In this document: piece after piece, positions 1 to 35,920 of the stretch
Layout: the number at the start of each line of letters is the position of its first letter
Numbering within the stretch: the stretch's first letter is position 1
Virus record (IMG/VR): IMGVR_UViG_2529293138_000008
Span: 1 to 35,920 of that record
Direction: 5' to 3' (one strand)
Source of the DNA: a virus
Taxonomy: Duplodnaviria > Heunggongvirae > Uroviricota > Caudoviricetes
DNA length: 35,920 nt
Program-made: the position numbers and the translations under genes
The notes under the pieces: model-generated
What the model was told of the DNA's origin: nothing
Seen by the model: the letters and a program-made list of their open reading frames with translations, nothing else
Databases searched by the model: none

Positions 1-57
1 GGTATCCGTTCTGCTGAAGTGTCATGGCGTTGATTTTACGGTGACTCTTCGACAGTG

Positions 58-83
58 AAAAGAAAAAAGGCCGCAGAGCGGCC
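58..83 (-). terminator. Rho-independent terminator candidate for the int-cargo operon
   Basis: Perfect hairpin ggccgc-aga-gcggcc at 69-83; on the minus strand it is followed by a U-run (reverse complement of aaaagaaaaaa at 58-68). Lies about 125 bp downstream of the last minus-strand gene. Confidence 0.45.
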
Positions 84-208
84 ATAAACACAAATAAAAA
101 TCAATAAGTTAGATAATTATCAAAGACTTACAGACACACAAAAACACAGCCAACCACAACAAATAACAGGGATGTGGTCACTTTGTGGATCATATCGCCG
201 CCATAAAT

Positions 209-646
209 TTACTTAATAACAGTAACCACAGCCACAAGCACGGCCATCGCAGACAGGACAATACCTGTGAGTAACCAAGTCTGATTTGCAAATGATTTCT
301 GAAGTTCAGTACGATGCTCAGCCATCTCAACTTTCAGAGACTGGCGTAAATCAGCCATCTCAGACTTCAGGGATTGGCGAGATTCTGCCATCTCAAGCCT
401 CAACCCTTCGCGAATCTCCAGTACATCAGATTTGGTAGCAAAGGATTCGCTTCTTGTGGTGAGAGTAATCAGGTTGTTTTTGATTTCAGTCACATCACTT
501 TCCAGGCAACTGACCCGCCGTTCAAGGTCGTCATTCATGCCATCACCTCCATCATTACCACTTCCTGTTACTTGGTTGTTGGATACATTATAGGCATTCT
601 CTTTCTTTTTTCTGAACCGCGAAATATGTGCAACATTCTCTGCCAT
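209..646 (-). CDS. Hypothetical coiled-coil protein with C-terminal transmembrane anchor (cargo)
   Basis: ORF track 209..649. Start likely the ATG at 646 overlapping the upstream TGA stop (TGATG coupling); an alternative ATG at 538 has a strong GGAGGTGA SD. Four tandem 11-residue repeats ending in EMA/SFA, then hydrophobic tail LLTGIVLSAMAVLVAVVTVIK. Confidence 0.5.
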   Translation of the reverse strand: MAENVAHISRFRKKKENAYNVSNNQVTGSGNDGGDGMNDDLERRVSCLESDVTEIKNNLITLTTRSESFATKSDVLEIREGLRLEMAESRQSLKSEMADLRQSLKVEMAEHRTELQKSFANQTWLLTGIVLSAMAVLVAVVTVIK

Positions 647-1008
647 CACTTCTCATCACCCTGCTTGCCTACCCAGTTCATAAAGGCCCGGGCCGAGTAA
701 CGATGAACAAACCCACATCTGTTACAGGTAAGTCGGAATTCATAGTTATGGATATTTTCCCGATCATGTCCCTCATATCCCGGATACCCAGTAAATGGAC
801 CGATGTAATCAAGCATAACAAAAGTGCCTAAATCACACTCCTCAGCAGTTTTCGGCTCAGGCCCCACCTCAACAATATTCGTCAAATACATGTACATATC
901 CGTATCGCCACACGACAAACATTTTTCATTCGTAGACGACTCATTGAGAAAACGCGCAAAATTATCGAGCGTTGCCATTCTTTTAAGCTCATCTAAATGA
1001 AACTTCAC
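646..1008 (-). CDS. Hypothetical Cys-rich protein (CxxC ... CxxC), cargo downstream of int
   Basis: ORF track 646..1008. GTG start preceded by a perfect AGGAGGTG SD with 7-nt spacer. Two CxxCG motifs (CLSCG, CNRCG) suggest a zinc ribbon. Start abuts the int stop. Confidence 0.55.
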   Translation of the reverse strand: MKFHLDELKRMATLDNFARFLNESSTNEKCLSCGDTDMYMYLTNIVEVGPEPKTAEECDLGTFVMLDYIGPFTGYPGYEGHDRENIHNYEFRLTCNRCGFVHRYSARAFMNWVGKQGDEK

Positions 1009-1010
1009 TC

Positions 1011-1988
1011 TTAAGCACCTCCTAGTGGATTAAACCTCACCGCATCCTGCAGGTAATCCGGCGCAAGATGGGCATAAATCATCGTTGTCTGAATCTTTGC
1101 GTGCCCCAGAATTTTCTGGAGCGTGAGAATATTGCCACCGTTCATCATGAAATGACTGGCGAAGGTGTGACGCAGCGCATGAACAGCCTGGCCGTCAGGA
1201 ACATCAGGTGCGACCGTTTTGATGACATCGCGAACCAATGAATAATCCAGCGTCGGAAACACCAGTTTCCCGCCCCGTTTTTTGATCTTTTCAAACAGGC
1301 TTTCAGAAATAGGAACGGTACGGTTTTTGCTGTTCTTCGTTTTTGAAAAAGTGATTCGACAATGAAGAACACGGCGCTGCTCCAGTACCGCTACCTCGCC
1401 CCATCGCGCCCCGGTCGACAGAAGGATTTCGACAGCCAGCCGTTCATCGGGATTTTCAGCCAATGCATCCAGCAACTGAACACATTCAGACTTACTCAGA
1501 TATCCCATTTCGCGCTCGTTAACCTTCATTCCTTTAAGGCCTTGAACGGGGTTATCGTTAAGAAAATGGCCGGATGAGATGAGTGCGGTAAACATCGCGC
1601 TTAACGCCCCAATCTCTCGATTTATGGTGCTGGGCTGTATCCCCTGCTCTATCCTGGACACACGTAGCTCGGTGAGCATCGTTGTATTAAGTTTATGCAC
1701 GCACGGGTCATCCATTGCCTCACTCAAGCGCAGCAATTTAAGGCGCGTGTTATGCCCTGACTTCATTAGCTGGCCGTGGTATTTCCACCACAAGTCAATA
1801 AGCACTGACAGAGGACGGCGATCAATAGAGTTTCCTTTCCACTCATTGTTATGCTGTTGCGCCAGCACCCACCGCTCATATAAAACTGCATCCGATTTCG
1901 TTTTAAATTTTTTGCGAATGCGTTTGCCTTTACGCCCCTCAGGGCGCATGTCAAGAAGATACCCTCCCGGAATTGATTTTATGCTCAT
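1011..1988 (-). CDS. int: Tyrosine site-specific integrase (P2/186 family)
   Basis: ORF track 1011..2138; start trimmed to internal MSIKS (1988), which matches the P2/186 Int N-terminus and avoids overlap with the repressor. C-terminal HALRHTFASHFMMNGGNILTLQKILGH...IYAHLAPDYLQDAVRFNPL is the catalytic R-H-R-Y region, recalled as near-identical in pattern to 186/P2 Int. Confidence 0.9.
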   Translation of the reverse strand: MSIKSIPGGYLLDMRPEGRKGKRIRKKFKTKSDAVLYERWVLAQQHNNEWKGNSIDRRPLSVLIDLWWKYHGQLMKSGHNTRLKLLRLSEAMDDPCVHKLNTTMLTELRVSRIEQGIQPSTINREIGALSAMFTALISSGHFLNDNPVQGLKGMKVNEREMGYLSKSECVQLLDALAENPDERLAVEILLSTGARWGEVAVLEQRRVLHCRITFSKTKNSKNRTVPISESLFEKIKKRGGKLVFPTLDYSLVRDVIKTVAPDVPDGQAVHALRHTFASHFMMNGGNILTLQKILGHAKIQTTMIYAHLAPDYLQDAVRFNPLGGA

Positions 1989-2037: not shown

Positions 2038-2349
2038 TTAGCCGGGCTGTGTACCAGTCTTGCGGGATTTTTGAGAAGACGATGTGTTTTCTGGCCCATC
2101 AGGGGAGAGAGAGGGACTGATCTGCCCAGCAGCCTCATTTGTTTTTCCCGTCATAAGCCATATAGTGTATTTTTCGAAATCCTTAGAATTAATTACGCGA
2201 TCAACAACGCTTAAACCAACCTCTCTTTTACCGCTCTCATAATTCTTTATAGTTCCGAGATTTATCCCAGTAACATCAGCAAACTCAGCTTGAGTTAACC
2301 CTTCACTTTTCCGTATCTCTTTCAGTTTTTTTTCGTACCCACTTGACAT
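2038..2349 (-). CDS. Immunity repressor, HTH (XRE-like), P2 C-type
   Basis: 103 aa. N-terminal LTQAEFADVTGINLGTIKNYESGKR is a classic helix-turn-helix. Position is immediately upstream of int, same strand, divergent from the early operon. Confidence 0.8.
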   Translation of the reverse strand: MSSGYEKKLKEIRKSEGLTQAEFADVTGINLGTIKNYESGKREVGLSVVDRVINSKDFEKYTIWLMTGKTNEAAGQISPSLSPDGPENTSSSQKSRKTGTQPG

Positions 2350-7642: not shown

Positions 7643-8602
7643 ATGAAAATTTGTATCGACGACGGCTCCACCAACATCAAGCTGGCATGGACTGAGAACG
7701 GCGAACGCCGCAACGCCATCAGCCCGAACAGCTTCAAGTCGGAATGGTCTGCGCCGTTCGGTGGCACGACGCCTGCAAACTACATGCTTGATGGCGTGCG
7801 CTATGGTTTTGATCCGGTCAGCGATCGCTTTGTCCAGACGACCGACACGCAATATCAGTACAGCGATGTGAATGTCATTGCCATACATCACGCACTGCTC
7901 AAATCAGGCATCACACCACAGGAAGTGGATGTGGTTGTCACCCTGCCACTGAGCGAGTATTTCGACACAAACGCCCAGCCGGATATGACCAACATCAACC
8001 GCAAAAAAGCGAACGTTATGCGACCGGTGGAATACCAGAACGGCGAAGCATTCACTATCCGTAATGTACGGGTTATGCCTGAATCCATTCCGGCTGGCTT
8101 TAAAGCACTGGCTGACATGAGTCCGTTTGAATCCCTGCTGATTGTGGATTTGGGCGGAACCACGCTGGATGTGGCAAAGGTTCAGGGACAACTGGCAGGT
8201 ATCAGCCAGGTGTTTTGCGATCCACACGTAGGCGTTTCACTGATGACCGATGCAGTGCTGTCGGTGATGGCCACCAACGGTATGCGTACCAGCCACCACA
8301 TCGCCAATACCATTATCGAACATCGCCACGATGAAACCTGGCTGCGCCAGCACATCCACAATGACGCGCATTACGCCAGCCTGATGGCGGTTATTAGTGA
8401 AAAGGAAGAAACACTGAAACAACGCGTGATCCGTGCGCTGGCGGGTTTTTCGGGTTACGGGCGGGTGATGGTTGTCGGTGGCGGGGCGGAGATTGTGGCA
8501 CCCGCTATCCGCGAAGCCTGCGGAGTTAATGCGACTTTCATCGCGGACGGGGTGCCACAGTTTGCTCTGGTTAATGGGCTGTACGCAATGGACAAGGAGT
8601 AA
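7643..8602 (+). CDS. parM: ParM/StbA-like actin-type segregation ATPase
   Basis: N-terminus MKICIDDGSTNIKLAW matches plasmid R1 ParM (MLVFIDDGSTNIKLQW, from memory). Further matches recalled: ISPNSFK, YSDVNVIAIHHALL, VMPESIPAG, DLGGTTLD, GGGAE. Length 319 aa, same as ParM. Confidence 0.8.
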   Translation: MKICIDDGSTNIKLAWTENGERRNAISPNSFKSEWSAPFGGTTPANYMLDGVRYGFDPVSDRFVQTTDTQYQYSDVNVIAIHHALLKSGITPQEVDVVVTLPLSEYFDTNAQPDMTNINRKKANVMRPVEYQNGEAFTIRNVRVMPESIPAGFKALADMSPFESLLIVDLGGTTLDVAKVQGQLAGISQVFCDPHVGVSLMTDAVLSVMATNGMRTSHHIANTIIEHRHDETWLRQHIHNDAHYASLMAVISEKEETLKQRVIRALAGFSGYGRVMVVGGGAEIVAPAIREACGVNATFIADGVPQFALVNGLYAMDKE

Positions 8603-8981: not shown

Positions 8982-9365
8982 ATGAGCAAAATCAACTATC
9001 AGGCATTACGTGAACGTTATTCACCTGCACCAGTACCAAAATGCCCTATTTGCGGCGAAGAAATGTCAATTCAGCGAATATCTGGATCACAGGTTGTTTA
9101 TGCCTGCTCCGGTTATGGTGATGATGGAGATTTCAAAATTGGTCGAACTCTTGCCGACGAACATTATGAAAAATCACGCGTAACAGTGTTGGATGTCGGG
9201 GATCCTGAAGTATTGGCGCTACTTGATTGGCTGGAAACCAAAGACAACCGAATCGCTGAACTGGAGAAAATCGCCACTGACTATGCACTTAAATTCCAGA
9301 AAGCACAGGACGCATTAAAGTACGCCGCTTTGCTGCATAGCAGGACAGCGCAGCTACAAGACTAA
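8982..9365 (+). CDS. Hypothetical protein with N-terminal zinc-ribbon-like motif (cargo)
   Basis: 127 aa; CPICG ... C...C near the N-terminus, C-terminal predicted helical. Occupies the P2 tin-like position. Confidence 0.5.
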   Translation: MSKINYQALRERYSPAPVPKCPICGEEMSIQRISGSQVVYACSGYGDDGDFKIGRTLADEHYEKSRVTVLDVGDPEVLALLDWLETKDNRIAELEKIATDYALKFQKAQDALKYAALLHSRTAQLQD

Positions 9366-16321: not shown

Positions 16322-16816
16322 ATGAGTATGGTTGCCAGAACCGAAACCCGCCCCGCAGAGGATGACATCACTGATACCGATGATGGCGATACCCGTATTT
16401 CTGCGGGGGCATTCTGGCCGGATATTGTGCTGCGTGAGCTGCGTCTGGCGGTACGACTGCCGGGCCGCGTGACCACCTCCCGCCTGCTGCATACCGCCAC
16501 CGGGGCGGTGGCCCACGTTACCCGTGAGCTGGAAGCGTGGCAGCAGGAACAGCAGGCAGCCGGACATGAAACACTGGCCGATGTCCCGGCGCCATTAATT
16601 AACGGAGAAAGCGTCAATCTCTGGCACTGGCGCAATGCGGTTTATACCGCCACCCGTGCCCTGATTCTGGAGCGTTACCGCGATGCGGACACAACGGACA
16701 AGGGCGACCGCCGGGCGGACGCACTGGATATACAGACATCGGATTTGTGGCGCGATGTGAGCTGGGCCATCTCTGACATTCTGTGCCGCCCGCGAATCTT
16801 TGCGGAGTTGTGCTGA
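16322..16816 (+). CDS. L: Head completion/stabilisation protein (P2 gpL-like)
   Basis: ORF track 16262..16816 trimmed to ATG 16322 after a caggagtg SD. LADVPA..INGESV and ERYRDADTTDKGDRRADALD..DLWRDVSWAI match recalled gpL. Confidence 0.85.
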   Translation: MSMVARTETRPAEDDITDTDDGDTRISAGAFWPDIVLRELRLAVRLPGRVTTSRLLHTATGAVAHVTRELEAWQQEQQAAGHETLADVPAPLINGESVNLWHWRNAVYTATRALILERYRDADTTDKGDRRADALDIQTSDLWRDVSWAISDILCRPRIFAELC

Positions 16817-17016
16817 TGAAAGTGAAGGCACTGGAAGGCGACACCGTGGATTCGCTCTGTTTCCGGTACTACGGCACGACGCAGGGCGTCACCGAAAAGG
16901 TGCTGGATGCCAACCCCGGACTCTGTCAGCAGGTATTTCTGGACGCCGGGCAGGAAGTGGAGATGCCGGAGCCGGAGAAGAAGAAACGAGAAATGATTCA
17001 GTTGTGGGGGGAGTAG
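16816..17016 (+). CDS. X: Tail protein X-like (LysM-like small protein)
   Basis: MKVKALEGDTVDSLCFRYYG parallels P2 gpX (MKTFALQGDTLDAICVRYYG, from memory); ATG overlaps the gpL stop. Confidence 0.75.
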   Translation: MKVKALEGDTVDSLCFRYYGTTQGVTEKVLDANPGLCQQVFLDAGQEVEMPEPEKKKREMIQLWGE

Positions 17017-17018
17017 CA

Positions 17019-17342
17019 GTGAGCACCATTCAAACAGGGATCACAGAGCAGGTTATTGCGTGGCTCTTTGACCACCTGCCAACGGTGTATGCAGTAGGCG
17101 CGGCGGTCAGCATTTCCGCGCTGATGAGTCTTTATGACGGACGAACACTGGTTCAGACCGTAACGGGATCGCTGGCGTGCGGCGTTCTTGCCATGGCCGT
17201 GGCCGGGTCGTTGCGCTTCTTCGGTTTTCCTGAAGATGCCGTGACGTTTATCGGCGCATCAATCGGTTTTATGGGCGCAGAGAAAGCACGCGACAAGGTT
17301 ATTGCGGCCTTTAATCGCAGGGTGAAGGAGAAGGACGAATGA
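17019..17342 (+). CDS. Holin (putative)
   Basis: GTG start after a ggggag SD. Two or three hydrophobic helices and a charged C-terminus (KARDKVIAAFNRRVKEKDE). Sits immediately upstream of the endolysin. Confidence 0.6.
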   Translation: MSTIQTGITEQVIAWLFDHLPTVYAVGAAVSISALMSLYDGRTLVQTVTGSLACGVLAMAVAGSLRFFGFPEDAVTFIGASIGFMGAEKARDKVIAAFNRRVKEKDE

Positions 17343-17731
17343 GCAACACATTTAAATTCAGCAGCCGGAGCGAAAAGAATTTGCAGGGCGTAAACCCTGA
17401 TCTGGTGAAAGTGACCCGACGGGCACTGGAAATCTCGGAAGTGGATTTTGGTATCACCGAAGGATTGCGCAGCCGTTACCGCCAGAAGCAACTTGTGGCC
17501 ACGGGTAAGAGCCAGACCATGAACAGCCGCCACCTTACGGGGCATGCTGTGGATGTTGTGGCTTATGTCGGCAGCCAGGTGTCATGGGAATGGCCGCTGT
17601 ACGAAAAAATCGCAGCAGCATTCAGACAGGCCAGCCGGGAGCTGAATATTCCGGTGGAATGGGGCGGCGACTGGAAGACCCTGAAAGACGGGCCGCATTT
17701 TCAGTTACCACACGGAGCCTATCCGGTATGA
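17339..17731 (+). CDS. Endolysin, peptidase M15 family (L-alanyl-D-glutamate endopeptidase type)
   Basis: 130 aa with SRHLTGHAVDV zinc-binding signature typical of VanY/M15 peptidases. Follows the holin with ATGA overlap. Confidence 0.7.
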   Translation: MSNTFKFSSRSEKNLQGVNPDLVKVTRRALEISEVDFGITEGLRSRYRQKQLVATGKSQTMNSRHLTGHAVDVVAYVGSQVSWEWPLYEKIAAAFRQASRELNIPVEWGGDWKTLKDGPHFQLPHGAYPV

Positions 17732-21718: not shown

Positions 21719-24268
21719 ATGAGTACCACAACACGAAAATTTAAAACCGTTATCACCGATACGGGTGCAAAAAAATTAGCGCAGGCAGCCGCGTCAGATG
21801 GTAAGCCTGTCCGCCTGACTCATATGGCCGTAGGCGACGGTGGCGGCACGTTGCCCACACCAGACAGTAAGCAGACCCGTCTGGTGCATGAGGTGTGGCG
21901 ACACACTGTTAATCGCGTCATCCTGGACGCAACACATCAGAACCGCATTATTGCAGAGCTGGTTATTCCTCCAGAAACGGGCGGATTCTGGATCCGGGAA
22001 ATTGGTGTATTTGATGAGCACGGCGATTTAATCGCGGTGGGCAATACTGCCGAAAGTTACAAGCCAGCCGTTGCCGAAGGGTCCGGTCGTGCACAAACAT
22101 TTCGCACCATTCTGACCGTATCCAGCACTGCCGCCGTGGCGCTTACCGTGGATAACACCATGGTGATGGCCACAGTGGATTACGTGGATGACAAACTGAA
22201 AGAGCATGAACAGTCACGACGTCACCCGGACGCCTCGCTGACCGCAAAAGGCTTTGTTCAACTCAGTAGCGCCACTAACAGCGATTCTGAAACGCTGGCG
22301 GCAACGCCGAAAGCGGTTAAGGTCGCGTATGATCTTGCTAACGGAAAATATACAGCGCAGGATGCCACAACAGCGCGAAAAGGCCTTGTCCAGCTCAGTA
22401 GTGCCACCAACAGCGATTCTGAAACGCTGGCGGCAACGCCAAAGGCAGTAAAATCAGCCTATGACAATGCAGAGAAACGTCTGCAGAAAGACCAGAACGG
22501 TAGAGATATTCCAGATAAGGGCGCTTTCCTGAATAACATTAACGCGGTCAGTAAAACAGACTTTGCTGCTAAGCGCGGTATGCGTTATGTGCGGGTTAAC
22601 GCTCCTGCAGGTGCAACGTCTGGAAAATATTACCCTGTTGTTGTTATGCGCTCTGCTGGATCAGTAAGCGAGCTGGCATCAAGAGTAATTATTACTACGG
22701 CAACACGAACCGCAAACGATCCGATGAATAACTGCGAGTTTAATGGATTCGTTATGCCTGGCGGCTGGACTGACAGGGGGCGTTATGCCTATGGAATGTT
22801 CTGGCAATATCAAAACAATGAACGAGCCATTCACTCAATAATGATGAGTAATAAGGGCGATGATTTGCGCTCTGTGTTCTATGTTGATGGCGCTGCTTTC
22901 CCTGTTTTTGCGTTTATCGAAGATGGCCTGTCAATATCCGCACCGGGTGCTGATCTCGTTGTTAATGATACGACCTATAAGTTTGGGGCAATAAATCCGG
23001 CGACTGAATGTGTCGCGGCGGACGTTATCCTTGATTTCAAGAGTGGGCGTGGTTTTTACGAATCTCATTCGTTAATCGTTAACGATAACTTGTCGTGCAA
23101 AAAACTTTTTGCCACAGACGAAATTGTAGCGCGTGGTGGTAATCAGATTCGAATGATAGGTGGGGAGTATGGTGCATTATGGCGTAATGATGGCGCTAAA
23201 ACTTACCTGCTGCTTACCAATCAAGGTGATGTTTATGGTGGCTGGAATACATTAAGACCGTTTGCTATTGATAACGCAACCGGCGAACTGGTTATTGGAA
23301 CCAAACTGTCCGCAAGTCTGAACGGTAATGCATTAACAGCAACAAAGCTGCAAACGCCAAGACTGGTTTCTGGTGTTGAGTTTGATGGTTCCAAAGATAT
23401 TACTTTAACCGCCGCGCATGTGGCTGCTTTTGCCAGAAGGGCAACGGATACATATGCCGATGCGAATGGTGGCGTTCCCTGGAATGCCGAATCAGGCGCT
23501 TACAATGTCACCCGCTCTGGCGACAGCTATATTCTGGTTAACTTCTATACCGGAGTCGGAAGTTGCCGGACCTTGCAGATGAAGGCGCATTACAGAAATG
23601 GTGGTCTGTTCTACCGTTCTTCAAGAGACGGTTATGGTTTTGAGGAAAACTGGGCAGAAGTTTATACCTCGAAAAATCTTCCACCAGAAAGCTACCCAGT
23701 CGGCGCACCAATCCCGTGGCCATCAGATACCGTTCCGTCTGGTTATGCCCTGATGCAGGGGCAGACTTTTGACAAATCTGCTTACCCGAAACTTGCAGCC
23801 GCTTATCCGTCAGGCGTGATCCCTGATATGCGTGGCTGGACGATTAAGGGCAAACCTGCCAGTGGTCGGGCCGTATTGTCTCAGGAACAGGACGGCATTA
23901 AATCGCACACCCACAGCGCCAGCGCATCCAGTACGGATTTGGGTACGAAAACCACATCGTCGTTTGATTACGGTACTAAATCCACAAATAACACCGGAGC
24001 ACATACACATAACTTTGCTTACAACAATACTTCAGCATACGCAGATACTCCTGGTACTGGCGGAGGAATGCATGCAACTAACACCAGCAAGACAGCAAGT
24101 AATCGCGTATTAAGCGCAGGAGCTCATACTCATACAGTAGCAATAGGTGCGCATACACATACGCTCGCTATTGGTTCGCATACACACACCATTACCATTG
24201 CCGCTTATGGTAACGCGGAAAACACCGTTAAAAACATCGCATTTAACTATATTGTGAGGCTTGCATGA
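21719..24268 (+). CDS. H: Tail fiber protein (P2 gpH-like), with internal repeats and His-rich tip
   Basis: 849 aa. Duplicated 44-residue module containing [21 protein letters not shown] (DNA direct repeats around 22250-22322 and 22382-22454). C-terminal GAHTHT-type HxH repeats typical of fiber tips. Confidence 0.85.
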
Positions 24269-25163: not shown

Positions 25164-25742
25164 ATGGATTTCAGAATGAGTGAACAACCACGGACCATAA
25201 AAATTTATAATCTGCTGGCGGGAACCAATGAATTTATTGGTGAAGGTGATGCATACATTCCACCTCATACAGGTCTGCCAGCAAACAGTACCGATATTGC
25301 GCCGCCAGATATTCCGGCAGGATTCGTAGCCGTTTTCAACAGTGATGAGGCATCGTGGCATCTCGTTGAAGACCATCGGGGAAAAACCGTCTATGACGTG
25401 GCTTCCGGCGACGCGTTATTTATTTCTGAACTCGGTCCGTTACCGGAAAATGTCACATTGCTGTCACCGGAGGGGGAGTATCAGAAGTGGAACGGCACAG
25501 CCTGGGTGAAGGATACGGAAGCAGAAAAAATGTTCCGGATACGGGGCGCTGAAGAAACCAAAAACAGCCTCATGCAGGTAGCCAGCGAGCATATTGCGCC
25601 ACTTCAGGATGCCGTAGATTTAGATATTGCGACGGAGGAAGAGGTATCGTTACTGGCTGCATGGAAGACATATCGGGTATTGTTGAATCGCGTTGATACA
25701 ACAGTGGCAGCGGATGTTGAGTGGCCAGTCGCACCACAATAA
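25164..25742 (+). CDS. G: Tail fiber assembly chaperone (P2 gpG/Tfa-like)
   Basis: ORF track 25158..25742; ATG 25164 follows an agagg SD. Position directly after the fiber genes; acidic C-terminus typical of Tfa proteins. Confidence 0.7.
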
Positions 25743-25785: not shown

Positions 25786-26358
25786 CTATTTATATAATAC
25801 AACACCGCTCTTTTTAGTTATATATGTGCAGTTCGATGGTATATCTTTATTTATAAAAGACATTGCACCTATTTTTACATTATCCCCAATTTTACGTGAT
25901 AATCCAATGATGCAACAATTAGCTCCGATATCAACGTTATTACCAATTTTTATTCTTGCACCAGGCATGTCACCATCTATCTGTCCAATGGTAGTATTCT
26001 GTCGTAACACCAGATTTTCACCAGCATCAACAGCAAAATGAACAACAATTCCAGCATGATGGGGAATTGTTAACCCTTTTCCAATATTTGCACCCAATCC
26101 AATTTCGCAACCAAACTTGTTAATTATTTTACTGTTTAACTTCTTGGCTGCTTTCTTATGTAATTCATTACCATTAATATACATTTCGTTAGCCAACCGC
26201 CACCAGAAAAGGAAATTCCGGTTACGCTGCTTTTTCTCTCTTAAAAGCCTCCAGATATCCACACGTTTCCGCCGAATTACTTCATATTTCCAGAAGTTTT
26301 TTAAATCAGTAGAGTTTCCAAATAAAACAAAGTGAATTGCCATTAAGTAAGACAGCAC
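25786..26358 (-). CDS. Hexapeptide-repeat (left-handed beta-helix) O-acetyltransferase, CysE/WcaB/NeuO-like (moron)
   Basis: 190 aa with repeated [LIV]-G-x-x-x-x hexads (IGLGANIGKGLTIPHHAGIVV, IKIGNNVDIGANCCIIG, IGDNVKIGAMSFI). Strongly AT-rich relative to flanking genes. Confidence 0.7.
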   Translation of the reverse strand: MLSYLMAIHFVLFGNSTDLKNFWKYEVIRRKRVDIWRLLREKKQRNRNFLFWWRLANEMYINGNELHKKAAKKLNSKIINKFGCEIGLGANIGKGLTIPHHAGIVVHFAVDAGENLVLRQNTTIGQIDGDMPGARIKIGNNVDIGANCCIIGLSRKIGDNVKIGAMSFINKDIPSNCTYITKKSGVVLYK

Positions 26359-33582: not shown

Positions 33583-35085
33583 ATGAACAAAAAGCTGTAT
33601 TTATTCCCAGACTCAAACATTTTTCTACAATGCAAGGACTTGACGCAGGTAAATTTTTCCGAGATTACTGCTTGTGATGAAGTATGTATCATTATTACAA
33701 GGCCCATTCAGCAAGAGATTGACCGCCAGAAAGGGCAAGGTAATTCCCGCCTATCCAAAAAAGCAAGGAAGGCTGCTAGCCTATTTAATCAAGTAGTTGA
33801 TTCAACTGACATGACTCTTGTTATTCGTGAACGCTCGCCGCGAGTTTTTCTTACCATGGATCTAAGCCTGAAACCATGTGAACAGTTATCTGAACAATTG
33901 GATTATCAGGAGGCCGACGATCGTTTTGTTGGTATTGCGGCAGGGTATTGCGCTGACGATCCAGATTCGGAGGTGGCAATCATTACCAATGATAGCGGTC
34001 CACGTTTTTCAGCAATAAAACATAATATAATCTGCTATAAAGTGCCTTCTTCATGGTTGCTTCCTGCTGAGCCAGATGAAAAGGATAAACAAATTAAATT
34101 GCTGGAAGCTAAGCTGAAGCAATTCACTCAGTCTATGCCCGATTTCAGCATTAAAGTAGCCGATGACGAGCAATTAAATATTGTACTTCCTTATTATACA
34201 GCTTTATCTGTATATGAAGTTGATAATTTGCTTTGTCAACTAACGGATGCATTCCCATTGGTTACAAACTTTGACAATGAACAAACTACCCCACAATCAC
34301 TAGAAAAAATCATCAAGTCATTTAGTCAACAGGAGTATTTCCCTGTATCAGCAGATGATATTTCTCTTTATAAAGAAAAACATTATCCACTTTGGAAAAA
34401 GCAGTGTGAAGAAATACTGAAAAACTGTCATACTCATATTAATCCGAAGGCAATAAAATACCCGCTGTCGTTTTTATTACAAAACACAGGTTATACTATC
34501 GCTGAACGTGCTGTGGTAACATTTACAGCAAAAGGAGATTTTCGTCTGTGTGGATTTAATTGGGAGATAATGGAAGAGCTGACTGAAAGCAAAAGGATTG
34601 ACCTACCTTCAGCCCCTACCGCCCCCAAAGGAAAATGGCGTAGTGTATGTGGCGTAACAGAAAGAATGCCTTACGCTTGGGGAGCTTTGGAAACACCGCT
34701 ATCCAGTATAATTTCAAAAGAAATTGGTCCTTTGTTATCTCTTACTCCAACAGAAAGGGATAAAAACGATTTTTATTATAAAGAAAAGAGAAATGAGCCA
34801 GTTCAAGTTGTATCGCTGGAATGCGAAGAGTGGCGTCATCAAGTCAAAGAAGAAATATTCCCGTTGTTCGTATATACAGCCAACAAACCAAAGAAAGTGA
34901 ATGGTGCAATTGAGGTGAGAGTTGATGCAAATAACCTTACCAATCCGGTCATTAAAACATTTAAATTAAAAATAACTATAGAAGAACATAGTGCATTTTC
35001 AACCATAACAGAAATGGTGCAGACATACATTCAAGAGCAGAAGAAAAGACAGAAAAGTTCTATTAGCGCACAAATCAAAACATGA
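33583..35085 (+). CDS. Stand-alone 500-aa protein with PIN-like N-terminal nuclease fold and uncharacterised C-terminal domain (cargo; candidate defence gene)
   Basis: AT-rich gene with its own sigma70-like promoter region (TTGATA ... TATATT around 33520-33560), gagg SD and downstream hairpin. N-terminal acidic residues in PIN-like spacing: LYLFPDSNIF (D), QQEID (E/D), QEADDRFVGIAAG (D), AIITNDSGP (D). C-terminal ~330 aa has no motif I recognise. Confidence 0.6.
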   Translation: MNKKLYLFPDSNIFLQCKDLTQVNFSEITACDEVCIIITRPIQQEIDRQKGQGNSRLSKKARKAASLFNQVVDSTDMTLVIRERSPRVFLTMDLSLKPCEQLSEQLDYQEADDRFVGIAAGYCADDPDSEVAIITNDSGPRFSAIKHNIICYKVPSSWLLPAEPDEKDKQIKLLEAKLKQFTQSMPDFSIKVADDEQLNIVLPYYTALSVYEVDNLLCQLTDAFPLVTNFDNEQTTPQSLEKIIKSFSQQEYFPVSADDISLYKEKHYPLWKKQCEEILKNCHTHINPKAIKYPLSFLLQNTGYTIAERAVVTFTAKGDFRLCGFNWEIMEELTESKRIDLPSAPTAPKGKWRSVCGVTERMPYAWGALETPLSSIISKEIGPLLSLTPTERDKNDFYYKEKRNEPVQVVSLECEEWRHQVKEEIFPLFVYTANKPKKVNGAIEVRVDANNLTNPVIKTFKLKITIEEHSAFSTITEMVQTYIQEQKKRQKSSISAQIKT

Positions 35086-35649: not shown

Positions 35650-35862
35650 ATGGTCGGAGGGAATACCCGAAGGCCAGATGTGGAAAGGCCCCGGAAAACA
35701 TCTCTGTTTAACCGAGGCCCTAACCGCATTACCTTGACAAGTGAAAGGTTAGCGCCTCTCCGGAAAAGGAGCAAGTGCTATGTCGCAAAAATCGCTTACG
35801 GCCATCACGTTCTGTGTGACGGCAATCCTCATCATCTGGATGTTGCACGGTTCGCTGTGTGA
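35650..35862 (+). CDS. Mok-like overlapping reading frame of a hok/sok-type locus (putative)
   Basis: 70-aa ORF overlapping the hok start in a different frame, as in hok/mok/sok loci. Weak by itself. Confidence 0.35.
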   Translation: MVGGNTRRPDVERPRKTSLFNRGPNRITLTSERLAPLRKRSKCYVAKIAYGHHVLCDGNPHHLDVARFAV

Positions 35863-35920
35863 AATACGGATGAGCTTCTGGGGAGCGGAGTTTGCGGCGT
35901 TCTTACAGTGTAAGCAGTAA
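35780..35920 (+). CDS. hok: Hok/Gef-family type I toxin (small membrane peptide)
   Basis: 46-aa ORF MSQKSLTAITFCVTAILIIWMLHGSLCEIRMSFWGAEFAAFLQCKQ: N-terminal TM helix followed by the family-typical SLCEIR motif and AAF. Stop codon is the last three bases of the window. Confidence 0.7.
   Translation: MSQKSLTAITFCVTAILIIWMLHGSLCEIRMSFWGAEFAAFLQCKQ

What the first reader, a model, noticed from the sequence alone, without database searches (positions are those of the whole stretch)
209..1008. Two-gene cargo operon downstream of int: Cys4 zinc-ribbon-like protein plus hendecad-repeat coiled-coil membrane-anchored protein
P2 has no genes between int and attP as I recall. Here two translationally coupled genes follow int on the same strand, the first with a perfect AGGAGGTG SD, ending at a clean terminator. 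The second encodes four tandem 11-residue repeats (33-bp DNA tandem repeats around 300-420) and a C-terminal transmembrane tail, i.e. a tail-anchored coiled-coil protein. Function unknown; could be an exclusion/defence or lysis-modulating pair.
Basis: partly seen in the sequence, partly recalled or inferred. Interest (0 to 1): 0.5.

Follow-up and report, generated by a model that had tools for sequence, protein, structure and literature searches.

The report
Prophage zinc-ribbon plus membrane-stalk gene pair
An E. coli P2-like prophage carries, between its integrase gene and its attachment site, a conserved but uncharacterised accessory gene pair: a small zinc-ribbon protein and a membrane-anchored coiled-coil stalk that is probably expressed in lysogens and may act against other phages, though that is untested.

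Summary
On the minus strand, int (1011-1988) is followed by gene A (646-1008, 120 aa) and gene B (209-646, 145 aa).

- **Inside the prophage:** the att core is window 59-83, downstream of both genes. Its hairpin is the "clean terminator".
- **A:** a soluble protein with four invariant Cys. Its confident model matches no known fold.
- **B:** a disordered N-peptide, a Gly/Asp linker, four heptads, an FATKSD beta-layer motif, four hendecads and a C-terminal membrane helix. It resembles the stalk and anchor of DUF1640/CCDC90 proteins but lacks their head and scores below Pfam threshold.
- **Linkage:** every A has a B overlapping or abutting its stop, across Enterobacterales P2/186-like prophages.
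- **Cargo slot:** sibling prophages at the same site carry an unrelated gene there.
- **Module swapping:** A and B's N-peptide exchange together, while the B core stays 99% identical.
- **Possible second isoform:** a conserved internal start codon behind a GGAGG-like stretch suggests a short form of B.

Function is untested. I favour a lysogen-expressed sensor or adaptor plus membrane stalk acting in phage exclusion or abortive infection (about 0.35-0.4). There are no PADLOC, PDB or literature matches.

The parts
59..83 (.). att core (AAAGAAAAAAGGCCGCAGAGCGGCC). On the minus strand it reads as the hairpin GGCCGCTCTGCGGCC plus a T-run, an intrinsic terminator that ends the C-int-A-B transcript.
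   Evidence: It is identical at attL (window) and at attR of strain SCU-387, just after ihfA. Prophage-free genomes match window 1-83 only. The terminator scan finds it.
173..192 (+). Tandem Int arm-type repeats TGTGGTCA and TGTGGATCA (P' arm of attP), starting 17 nt after B's stop.
   Evidence: The motif is conserved right after the cargo stop codon in L003, L002 and L010. A TGTGGACA copy lies on the attR side. Identifying these as P2-type arm sites rests on my own knowledge.
209..646 (-). Gene B, long form, 145 aa (phrog_9415). It encodes a tail-anchored coiled-coil membrane protein.
   Evidence: The B frame is open from A's stop in 17 distinct lineages. The B core has dN/dS 0.02.
566..646 (-). 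B residues 1-27: a basic, disordered N-terminal peptide. It is fast-evolving and co-swapped with gene A.
   Evidence: pLDDT is below 50 and pI is about 10. dN/dS is 0.38-0.78 for residues 1-36 as a whole, the N-peptide plus the linker.
539..565 (-). B residues 28-36: a Gly/Asp-rich linker (GSGNDGGDG). Its GGA GGT codons double as a Shine-Dalgarno-like GGAGGT at 550-545.
   Evidence: Linker length varies elsewhere, for example GGD expansions in L042 and 9-11 Gly in Sodalis.
536..538 (-). Invariant internal start codon (M37). It is the putative start of a 109-aa short B isoform.
   Evidence: The codon is ATG in 16 of the 17 distinct sequence contexts found and GTG in the other (L051). It is always preceded by a Gly-codon run that reads as GGAGG-like in most contexts and as a weaker G-rich stretch in L052, L054 and L057. 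Many annotators call this start.
425..442 (-). Beta-layer motif FATKSD (B residues 69-74), between the heptad segment (38-66) and the hendecad segment.
   Evidence: K72 and D74 are invariant. The motif starts 33 residues after M37 in nearly every B that carries it; L052 is the one exception and the Providencia B has none. It matches the [aliphatic]-A-T-K-[polar]-[DE] pattern described for DUF1640 (PMC4786415).
293..424 (-). Four hendecad (11-residue) coiled-coil repeats, B residues 75-118. The 33-bp DNA period is visible at 318-396.
   Evidence: Copy number is 1-5 in homologues.
215..277 (-). C-terminal transmembrane helix (B residues 124-144), followed by a single Lys.
   Evidence: Hydropathy of the best 18-residue window is 2.58. 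The model is helical through residue 144.
646..1008 (-). Gene A, 120 aa (phrog_4293). It encodes a soluble Cys4 zinc-ribbon-like protein. Cys codons are at 921-919, 912-910, 726-724 and 717-715.
   Evidence: AF2 gives pLDDT 86.8. No fold match was found.
1016..1023 (-). AGGAGGTG Shine-Dalgarno for gene A, embedded in the last codons of int.
   Evidence: Read directly from the sequence.
1011..1988 (-). P2-type tyrosine integrase, immediately upstream in the same operon.
   Evidence: Pfam Int_N 1.6e-28 and Phage_integrase 2.3e-19.
2038..2349 (-). C-type HTH immunity repressor, the first gene of the presumed lysogenic operon C-int-A-B.
   Evidence: Pfam HTH_3 and phrog_147. No terminator-like site with a plausible G+C-rich stem lies between it and B.

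Best explanation
A and B form a mobile two-gene accessory cassette in the integrase-to-attP cargo slot of P2/186-like prophages of Enterobacterales. It is read as the tail of the repressor-integrase (lysogenic) operon and terminated by the hairpin in the att core.

A is a soluble, acidic, zinc-binding (Cys4) protein with an orphan fold.

B is a tail-anchored inner-membrane protein. Its cytoplasmic part is a rod: four heptads, a beta-layer, then a variable number of hendecads. By analogy with beta-layer coiled coils it is probably a trimer. The rod is tipped by a flexible Gly/Asp linker and a short basic peptide.

Inferred mechanism:
1. A docks on B's N-terminal peptide, because the two are inherited and exchanged as one unit while the B rod and anchor stay constant.
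2. A plus the N-peptide would then be the specificity (sensor or adaptor) module, and the B rod and anchor the constant membrane chassis or effector.
3. An internal start would add a short B isoform lacking the docking peptide, which could tune or restrain the complex.
4. The most likely biological role is protection of the lysogen against other phages. Superinfection exclusion and abortive infection at the inner membrane are the candidate modes, in the manner of other repressor-operon cargo such as lambda RexAB or P22 SieB.

Shown here: anatomy, location inside the prophage, cargo status, strict A-B linkage, purifying selection, repeat-number variation, module swapping, and conservation of the internal start codon.

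Inferred only: zinc binding, trimer state, the A-B contact, the two isoforms, expression in lysogens, and the anti-phage role.
For: Location and cargo status
- The att core at 59-83 lies downstream of both genes.
- The same slot holds an unrelated 131-aa gene in the E2348/69 and O104:H4 prophages, with cargo ending at the same arm site.
- A 2026 survey reports the integrase-att interval of P2-like prophages as a minor defence hotspot, holding 3% of systems (PMC13586616).

Operon context
- The genes share a strand and have 2-nt and overlapping junctions. No terminator-like site with a plausible G+C-rich stem lies before the core hairpin.
- In Citrobacter, and in an IMG/VR contig of unidentified host (L055), the pair sits upstream of int. 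In the Citrobacter locus it follows a CI-type repressor, so it is still in the lysogenic operon.

Linkage
- Across about 55 loci, every intact A is followed by a B ORF starting 36 nt before to 1 nt after A's stop. Every B-like gene checked has an A upstream.

Protein features
- A: four Cys are invariant in 36 sequences. The model has pLDDT 86.8.
- B: the beta-layer motif is invariant and, in nearly every B that has it, sits at a fixed distance from M37. The stalk and TM region of the B' allele matches Pfam CCDC90-like at E 1.8e-5. There are weak PDB profile hits to beta-layer coiled-coil constructs.

Selection
- The B core shows 13-14 synonymous against 1 non-synonymous change. A has dN/dS 0.08-0.59.

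Module swapping
- L061 and L003 are about 92% identical in the int 3' end and 98-100% identical in the B core. They are about 40% identical over A plus the B N-peptide, with the junction at the Gly linker.
- Two independent lineage pairs have a B core at least 87% identical, with A at 24-41% and the N-peptide at 22-29%.

N-extension and dual start
- There are no stops in the B frame in 17 spacers, against stops in 17/17 and 15/17 in the other two frames.
- The internal codon is ATG 16 times and GTG once, behind a G-rich, mostly GGAGG-like Gly-codon run.
Against: - There is no experimental or homology link to any defence system. PADLOC gives nothing significant. The coiled-coil hits of B' to ZorA, LmuB and LeoBC are compositional.
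- No paper mentions these proteins.
- The cassette is absent from isolated phage genomes in GenBank, apart from one Klebsiella record, and from plasmids. Its carriage by active phages is therefore not demonstrated.
- B has essentially no periplasmic part. That argues against classic exclusion acting at the periplasmic face.
- The A-B contact rests on co-inheritance only; no complex was modelled.
- The promoter was not located, and the scan shows promoter-like sites no more often than in shuffled sequence.
- The Providencia copy is not next to an integrase.
Confidence: 0.4

Rival explanations
1. Lysogenic-conversion module that acts on host physiology rather than on phages. B would be a cytoplasm-facing membrane scaffold, in the way CCDC90/MCUR1-type proteins are scaffolds or as E. 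coli tail-anchored proteins ElaB/YqjD tether partners. A would be its client or regulator. The benefit to the host could be stress tolerance or envelope homeostasis.
For: - The architecture resembles DUF1640/CCDC90 stalk-anchor proteins, and RefSeq labels the B' allele DUF1640/CCDC90.
- A generic match to the tail-anchored SH3_and_anchor family covers the coiled coil and TM.
- The stalk tolerates length changes in 11-residue quanta, as expected of a spacer.
- There are no defence-database hits.
Against: - The head domain that defines CCDC90 proteins is missing, and the Pfam score is below threshold.
- The rapid turnover and swapping of A plus the N-peptide against a frozen B core looks more like an arms-race interface than housekeeping.
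- The slot is a documented defence hotspot.
Confidence: 0.2
2. Toxin-antitoxin-like addiction module. B would be a membrane-damaging toxin and A a labile zinc-ribbon antitoxin that neutralises it by binding its N-terminal peptide, so stabilising the prophage.
For: - Antitoxin-then-toxin gene order, with overlapping stop and start and small sizes.
- A has an acidic C-terminal tail.
- The best, but non-significant, Foldseek hit of A is the zinc-binding N-domain of antitoxin MqsA, E 0.95.
- A and B's N-peptide are inherited together.
Against: - Neither protein is similar to any toxin or antitoxin family.
- A 100-residue rigid stalk with conserved register is not expected of a small membrane toxin.
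- In L053, A is truncated by an IS while B is intact with its TM. This is only weak evidence, because the operon promoter was probably lost too.
- An internal start would produce B without the presumed A-binding peptide, and that form would escape neutralisation.
Confidence: 0.15
3. Accessory factor of lysogeny, integration or excision. It might tether or titrate Int, Cox or the repressor, or the att DNA, at the membrane, which would explain why the pair is usually adjacent to int.
For: - The pair is linked to a P2-type int in three different gene orders: C-int-A-B, CI-x-A-B-int and int-A-B-host.
- One source names an A-family member a 'predicted nucleic-acid-binding Zn-ribbon protein'.
Against: - P2 itself (from memory) and sibling prophages at the same att site lack the pair and carry unrelated cargo.
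- The Providencia copy abuts ogr with no int nearby.
- A shows no similarity to Cox/Xis or other recombination directionality factors.
Confidence: 0.1
4. The genes are host genes or annotation artefacts, not part of the prophage.
For: None found.
Against: - Host identity stops at window 83 and the core is 59-83.
- Both ORFs match PHROG families at 3e-30 and 1e-42.
- Strong purifying selection acts on them.
- They are present only in prophage contexts.
Confidence: 0.01

Closest known systems
DUF1640 / CCDC90-like membrane proteins (Pfam PF07798; MCUR1, CCDC90B and prokaryotic relatives)
   Same: Both have a beta-layer motif ([aliphatic]-A-T-K-[polar]-[DE]; here FATKSD) followed by a coiled-coil stalk and a single C-terminal membrane anchor. 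The stalk and TM of the B' allele match the Pfam model at E 1.8e-5. RefSeq names that allele DUF1640/CCDC90.
   Different: B has no globular head domain. Instead it has a 4-heptad segment, a Gly/Asp linker and a disordered peptide. The window's B scores only 10.9 bits against a threshold of 33.5. The stalk is built of hendecads whose number varies. B is always paired with a zinc-ribbon gene and has a conserved internal start.
Lambda RexA/RexB and P22/lambda SieB (prophage exclusion genes read from the immunity region; from my own knowledge, not tested here)
   Same: In both cases the cargo sits behind the repressor gene in the lysogenic transcript. Rex pairs a soluble partner with a membrane protein. 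As I recall, SieB also makes a shorter in-frame product (Esc) from an internal start, which restrains it; that parallels the putative long and short forms of B.
   Different: There is no sequence or fold similarity. RexB is polytopic, whereas B has one C-terminal helix and a long rod. No phenotype is known for A-B.
Cargo/defence hotspots of P2-like prophages (old/tin locus, Z/fun locus, and the minor integrase-att hotspot; PMC9122126, PMC13586616)
   Same: The slot lies between a conserved core gene (int) and the att arm sites, and unrelated alternative cargo occupies it in sibling prophages.
   Different: The content is not a recognised defence system. Neither paper, as far as searched, describes this pair.
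Zinc-ribbon proteins (Cys4 rubredoxin-like knuckles), e.g. MqsA N-domain and TFIIS-type ribbons
   Same: Both have two CxxC knuckles next to beta-strands. The only hits, all far below significance, are zinc-ribbon Pfam families and MqsA.

Membership tests
DUF1640 / CCDC90-like (PF07798) | Score at or above the Pfam gathering threshold (33.5 bits) | tested here: not met
   The window's B scores 10.9 bits, E 0.43. The B' allele of L003 scores 25.1 bits, E 1.8e-5.
DUF1640 / CCDC90-like (PF07798) | Beta-layer motif [aliphatic]-A-T-K-[polar]-[DE] at the start of the stalk | tested here: met
   FATKSD lies at residues 69-74, with K72 and D74 invariant. The motif definition comes from PMC4786415.
DUF1640 / CCDC90-like (PF07798) | Single C-terminal transmembrane anchor after the coiled-coil stalk | tested here: met
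   Residues 124-144 have hydropathy 2.58, with one residue after the helix.
DUF1640 / CCDC90-like (PF07798) | N-terminal globular head domain before the beta-layer | tested here: not met
   Only profile positions 68-171 of 175 are matched. The N-terminus is disordered up to residue 34, followed by one continuous helix.
DUF1640 / CCDC90-like (PF07798) | Trimeric assembly | not testable with these tools
   Only a monomer could be modelled. The trimer is inferred from the beta-layer motif.
Cys4 zinc ribbon | Two conserved CxxC knuckles | tested here: met
   C30, C33, C95 and C98 are invariant in 36 sequences at 25% mean identity.
Cys4 zinc ribbon | Knuckles at beta-hairpin turns, bringing the four Cys together | tested here: inconclusive
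   The model places C95 at the end of strand 89-95 and C98 before strand 101-105. C30 and C33 lie in the loop before strand 38-40. Coordinates could not be inspected.
Cys4 zinc ribbon | Bound zinc | not testable with these tools
   Metal analysis of purified protein is needed.
P2-like integrase-att cargo (defence) hotspot | Lies between int and the att core, inside the element | tested here: met
   The core is 59-83, the arm repeats are 173-192 and the genes span 209-1008.
P2-like integrase-att cargo (defence) hotspot | Unrelated alternative content at the same position in related elements | tested here: met
   A 131-aa gene occupies the slot in the E2348/69 and O104:H4 prophages. Divergent A/B alleles occur in others.
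P2-like integrase-att cargo (defence) hotspot | Match to a known defence-system model | tested here: not met
   PADLOC-DB 2.0.0 gave nothing significant for A, B or A'. The B' hits are coiled-coil matches only.
P2-like integrase-att cargo (defence) hotspot | Anti-phage phenotype | not testable with these tools
   Phage challenge of a strain carrying the cassette is needed.
Type II toxin-antitoxin pair | Two small overlapping genes, with the putative antitoxin first | tested here: met
   The junction is TGATG, and overlaps range from -36 to +1 nt across loci.
Type II toxin-antitoxin pair | Homology to a toxin or antitoxin family | tested here: not met
   Pfam, NCBIfam and PADLOC gave nothing. 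The MqsA fold hit has E 0.95.
Phage lysis proteins (holin, antiholin, spanin) | Located in the late lysis cassette, with significant family match | tested here: not met
   Holin and endolysin lie at 16800-17731. The Rz-like PHROG match of B has only E 0.035.

The most novel reading that the evidence does not exclude
A-B is a previously unrecognised kind of prophage immune module. It would have a constant, membrane-anchored trimeric alpha/beta coiled-coil stalk of tunable length (hendecad copy number). The stalk would present, on a flexible Gly linker, a short docking peptide for an exchangeable orphan-fold zinc-ribbon sensor. The sensor gene and its docking peptide would be swapped between prophages as one cartridge. 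A second, peptide-less isoform made from a conserved internal start would set the threshold of activation.
Probability: 0.25. Interest if true: 0.7.

Novelty: new variant of a known kind. Interest (0 to 1): 0.5.

Why it matters
The pair is a compact, experimentally tractable candidate from a little-studied cargo slot of P2-like prophages, the integrase-att interval, which was recently flagged as a minor defence hotspot.

About 2% of complete E. coli genomes carry one allele or another, including O157:H7, O26, O103 and O145 strains.

If the pair acts against phages, it would add a system whose logic can be read from the sequence:
- an exchangeable sensor cartridge made of A and B's N-peptide;
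- a frozen membrane stalk whose length changes in 11-residue steps;
- a possible long/short isoform control.

Independently of function, B is a natural beta-layer/hendecad coiled coil with copy-number variants. A is a confidently modelled zinc-binding fold with no structural relative. Both are useful for protein-structure work.

If the pair turns out to be a host-physiology scaffold or an addiction module, it is a routine moron.

Tried and rejected
Searches that found nothing
- Pfam, NCBIfam and PADLOC gave nothing significant for A or B. Only PHROG families of unknown function matched.
- The PDB sequence-profile search gave no relative for A. For B it gave only weak coiled-coil and beta-layer construct hits.
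- GenBank phages: megablast and tblastn found only one Klebsiella record. Plasmids gave none.
- Species-representative genomes gave 0 and then 2 loci. Two alignments were too diverse for pattern search.
- Literature: no paper cites the RefSeq accessions. Searches for tail-anchored prophage exclusion proteins, and for sieB/esc, gave nothing usable. The 2011 P2 regulatory-region paper does not discuss genes in this slot.

Ideas considered and dropped
- Lysis role: rejected on position.
- B starts only at M37 and the upstream stretch is a non-coding spacer: rejected, because the B frame is open in all 17 lineages while the other frames are closed.
- The Gly run is only a ribosome-binding site: rejected as the sole explanation, because it expands as Gly or GGD repeats.
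- The PADLOC hits of B' to ZorA, LmuB and LeoBC: treated as coiled-coil composition matches.
- A fold search with the B model: not run, because a single long helix gives uninformative matches.
Full report
**What is there.** The window is a P2-like prophage of E. coli. It has portal, terminase, capsid, holin and endolysin, gpA nickase, sheath and gpD, plus Ogr. On the minus strand at its left end lie four genes:
- a C-type HTH repressor (2038-2349);
- a P2-type tyrosine integrase (1011-1988; Int_N 1.6e-28, Phage_integrase 2.3e-19);
- ORF A (646-1008, 120 aa);
- ORF B (209-646, 145 aa).

The junctions are tight. int's TAA (1013-1011) is followed 2 nt later by A's GTG (1008), and AGGAGGTG lies at 1023-1016. 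A's TGA overlaps B's ATG (TGATG).

**Are the genes inside the prophage?** Yes.
- More than 5,300 prophage-free E. coli genomes match only window 1-83. The left neighbour is btuC.
- Aligning attL with attR of a strain carrying the same prophage gives a 25-bp common core, AAAGAAAAAAGGCCGCAGAGCGGCC, at window 59-83, next to ihfA.
- On the minus strand this core is a GC hairpin plus T-run, the only terminator-like site with a G+C-rich stem after B. The 'clean terminator' is thus the att core itself, which is also the host ihfA terminator. The phage carries it in attP, so it ends the C-int-A-B transcript in either state.
- Tandem TGTGGTCA and TGTGGATCA repeats lie between B's stop and the core, at 173-192. 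They recur immediately after the cargo stop codon in other prophages. I take them to be Int arm-type sites (own knowledge of P2 attP).

**Cargo, not core.**
- The exact pair occurs in 86 of 5,426 complete E. coli genomes.
- A further 158 genomes share only the arm region. In E2348/69 and O104:H4 the slot holds one unrelated 131-aa gene that ends at the same arm site.
- A divergent allele pair (A' 166 aa, B' about 181-184 aa depending on the start codon; labelled DUF1640 or CCDC90 by RefSeq) occupies the slot in 23 genomes, including O157:H7, O26, O103 and O145. Another 16 genomes share only the B' part.
- A 2026 survey of P2-like prophages lists the integrase-att interval as a minor defence hotspot holding 3% of systems (PMC13586616).
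- The pair is absent from GenBank phage isolates, apart from one Klebsiella record with the same int-A-B order, and from plasmids.

**Protein A.**
- It matches phrog_4293 (3e-30, unknown function) and nothing in Pfam, NCBIfam or PADLOC.
- The family is small: 8 clusters in 5.8 billion sequences by word search, and 35 representatives at E<1e-3 in 1.84 billion by exhaustive HMM search.
- Named members come only from Enterobacterales: Escherichia, Salmonella, Klebsiella, Citrobacter, Serratia, Providencia, Morganella, Sodalis and Regiella.
- Four Cys (C30, C33, C95, C98), G99 and W112 are invariant at 25% mean identity.
- The insert between the two CxxC knuckles and the N-terminal helical extension vary in length.
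- AlphaFold2 gives a confident model (pLDDT 86.8, pTM 0.77) of two N-terminal helices, six strands and a C-terminal helix.
- No structural relative was found, nor any PDB sequence relative.
- A has no signal peptide or membrane segment and is acidic (pI 5.1).

**Protein B.** It matches phrog_9415 (1e-42, unknown function). Its parts are as follows:

| Residues | Feature |
|---|---|
| 1-27 | Basic, disordered peptide |
| 28-36 | Gly/Asp linker |
| 38-66 | Heptad pattern |
| 69-74 | FATKSD |
| 75-118 | Four hendecads with a 3-4-4 hydrophobic spacing |
| 124-144 | Membrane helix, followed by one Lys |

- FATKSD fits the beta-layer motif [aliphatic]-A-T-K-[polar]-[DE] that Hartmann et al. described at the start of the stalk of DUF1640 membrane proteins (PMC4786415).
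- It starts 33 residues after M37 in nearly every B that carries it. L052 is the one exception, and the Providencia B has no such motif.
- The B' allele matches Pfam CCDC90-like over stalk and anchor only, at 25.1 bits against a threshold of 33.5. The window's B does not match.
- B is therefore DUF1640-like in stalk and anchor, lacks the head, and is not a Pfam member. Trimer state and N-in topology are inferred.

**Repeat-number variation.**
- Among homologues over 60% identical, the hendecad block has 1, 2, 3, 4 or 5 units. Protein lengths are 123, 134, 145 and 156 aa, or 87, 98 and 109 aa when called from M37.
- B' shows the same behaviour: L012 has one extra LKGELKCDIAN unit.
- The Gly linker also expands: three extra GGD units in L042, and 9-11 Gly in Sodalis.
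- Within the 86 E. coli genomes sampled, the allele is full length.
- The stalk thus tolerates length steps of 11 residues, which keep the coiled-coil register.

**Linkage and operon position.**
- In about 55 loci, every intact A is followed by a B ORF beginning 36 nt before to 1 nt after A's stop.
- Exceptions are decayed copies: Regiella B is truncated, Sodalis B has lost its anchor, A in L056 is truncated, and A in L053 is cut by an IS.
- B-like proteins found independently also have an A upstream.
- Three gene orders occur: C-int-A-B-att (the window, Klebsiella, Sodalis and others); CI-(Flk_N-like)-A-B-int-att in a 186-like Citrobacter prophage, with a similar A-B-int order in L055; and A'-B' abutting ogr without int in Providencia.
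- Wherever a regulatory region is present, the pair lies in the repressor/integrase transcription unit. This is why I expect expression in lysogens (inferred).

**Selection.** Against alleles L030 and L031, the B core shows 13-14 synonymous changes and 1 non-synonymous change (dN/dS 0.02). A has dN/dS 0.28-0.59. B residues 1-36 have 0.38-0.43, with the changes concentrated in the first 11 residues.

**Is the N-terminal extension of B real, and is there a second start?**
- In 17 distinct lineages, the stretch from A's stop to the conserved Met has no stop in B's frame. The other two frames have stops in 17/17 and 15/17. The long form is therefore translated.
- The residue that opens the coiled coil is encoded by ATG in 16 of the 17 distinct sequence contexts and by GTG in the other (L051).
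- It is always preceded by a run of Gly codons that reads as GGAGG-like in most contexts and as a weaker G-rich stretch in a few.
- The position thus keeps start-codon identity rather than an amino acid, and many gene callers pick it.
- I infer two isoforms, long and short. This needs experimental proof.
- A promoter-like match (TTCAGA-18-TATAAT, 616-587, minus strand) lies just upstream, but such matches are no more frequent than in shuffled sequence.

**Module swapping.**
- L061 and L003 are about 92% identical at the int 3' end and 98-100% identical from just before the internal Met to the att site. They are about 40% identical over A plus B's N-peptide.
- Across 21 distinct triples, two independent pairs have a B core at least 87% identical, with A at 24-41% and the N-peptide at 22-29%. 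The reverse pattern does not occur.
- A and the N-peptide thus travel as one cartridge on a constant stalk. This is the basis for proposing that A docks on that peptide.

**Mechanism and rivals.**
- Best-supported reading: a lysogen-expressed two-part module in which A plus the N-peptide is the variable sensor or adaptor, and the B rod and anchor is the constant membrane chassis or effector. A role in excluding or aborting other phages is the most likely (about 0.35-0.4).
- The parallels are functional analogies recalled from memory, not homologies: lambda RexAB (soluble plus membrane partner behind the repressor) and P22 SieB/Esc (a shorter in-frame product that restrains the long one).
- Rivals: a host-physiology scaffold (0.2), a toxin-antitoxin-like addiction pair (0.15), and an integration or lysogeny accessory (0.1).
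- A lysis role is unlikely on position. The host-gene scenario is refuted.

**Novelty and score.** Both proteins already sit in PHROG families of unknown function, and RefSeq labels one allele DUF1640, so the genes are not new to databases. No description of the pair was found, covering its architecture, its cartridge-like exchange or its internal start. It is a new variant within the known class of prophage hotspot cargo. Interest is moderate at 0.5: a clean, testable candidate with unusual protein features, but with no functional evidence yet.

Noticed in passing
window 33583-35085 (+): A 500-aa ORF with an N-terminal PIN_4 domain (E 4e-8) sits between gpD and ogr and has no PADLOC hit. In strain SCU-387 the same slot holds a GmrSD-type restriction endonuclease gene instead, so this looks like another swappable cargo or defence slot of this prophage lineage.
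   Followed up: partly
window 35780-35920 (+): A Hok/Gef-family toxin ORF (46 aa, E 4e-7) lies between ogr and attR at the right end of the prophage. No Sok-type RNA reached Rfam threshold.
   Followed up: partly
window 7643-8602 (+) and 8982-9365 (+): A full-length ParM/StbA actin-like segregation protein (StbA_N 7e-82, ParM C-terminal domain 6e-69) and an Ead/Ea22-like protein lie in the gpA-to-portal variable region. This is unusual cargo for an integrated P2-like prophage.
   Followed up: no
window 25507-25705 (+): Rfam IS009 RNA family match (171.6 bits, E 5e-41), downstream of the tail-fibre genes.
   Followed up: no
window 25786-26358 (-): A 190-aa ORF next to the tail-fibre region has weak hexapeptide-repeat (acyltransferase-like) matches below Pfam threshold. 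It may be a lysogenic-conversion gene.
   Followed up: no
window 587-616 (-): A promoter-like site, TTCAGA-18-TATAAT (10 of 12), lies inside the coding region for B's N-terminal extension, about 50 nt upstream of the internal start codon. Such matches are no more frequent here than in shuffles.
   Followed up: no
L010 2541-2936 and L011 2541-2936 (E2348/69 and O104:H4 prophages): An alternative cargo in the same int-att slot: a 131-aa protein with no Pfam or PADLOC match. Its stop codon overlaps the first arm-type repeat.
   Followed up: partly
L057 2002-2631 (Citrobacter farmeri 186-like prophage): A 209-aa Flk_N-domain protein with a C-terminal hydrophobic tail (another tail-anchored protein) lies between the CI-type repressor and A-B in the lysogenic operon.
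   Followed up: no
window 22246-22464 (+): Two 87-nt direct repeats (84% identical, 132 nt apart) lie inside the 849-aa tail-fibre ORF.
   Followed up: no
L055 1853-2746: In one IMG/VR contig, A-B-int is preceded by a 297-aa ORF of unknown function instead of a small HTH repressor. It was not analysed.
   Followed up: no
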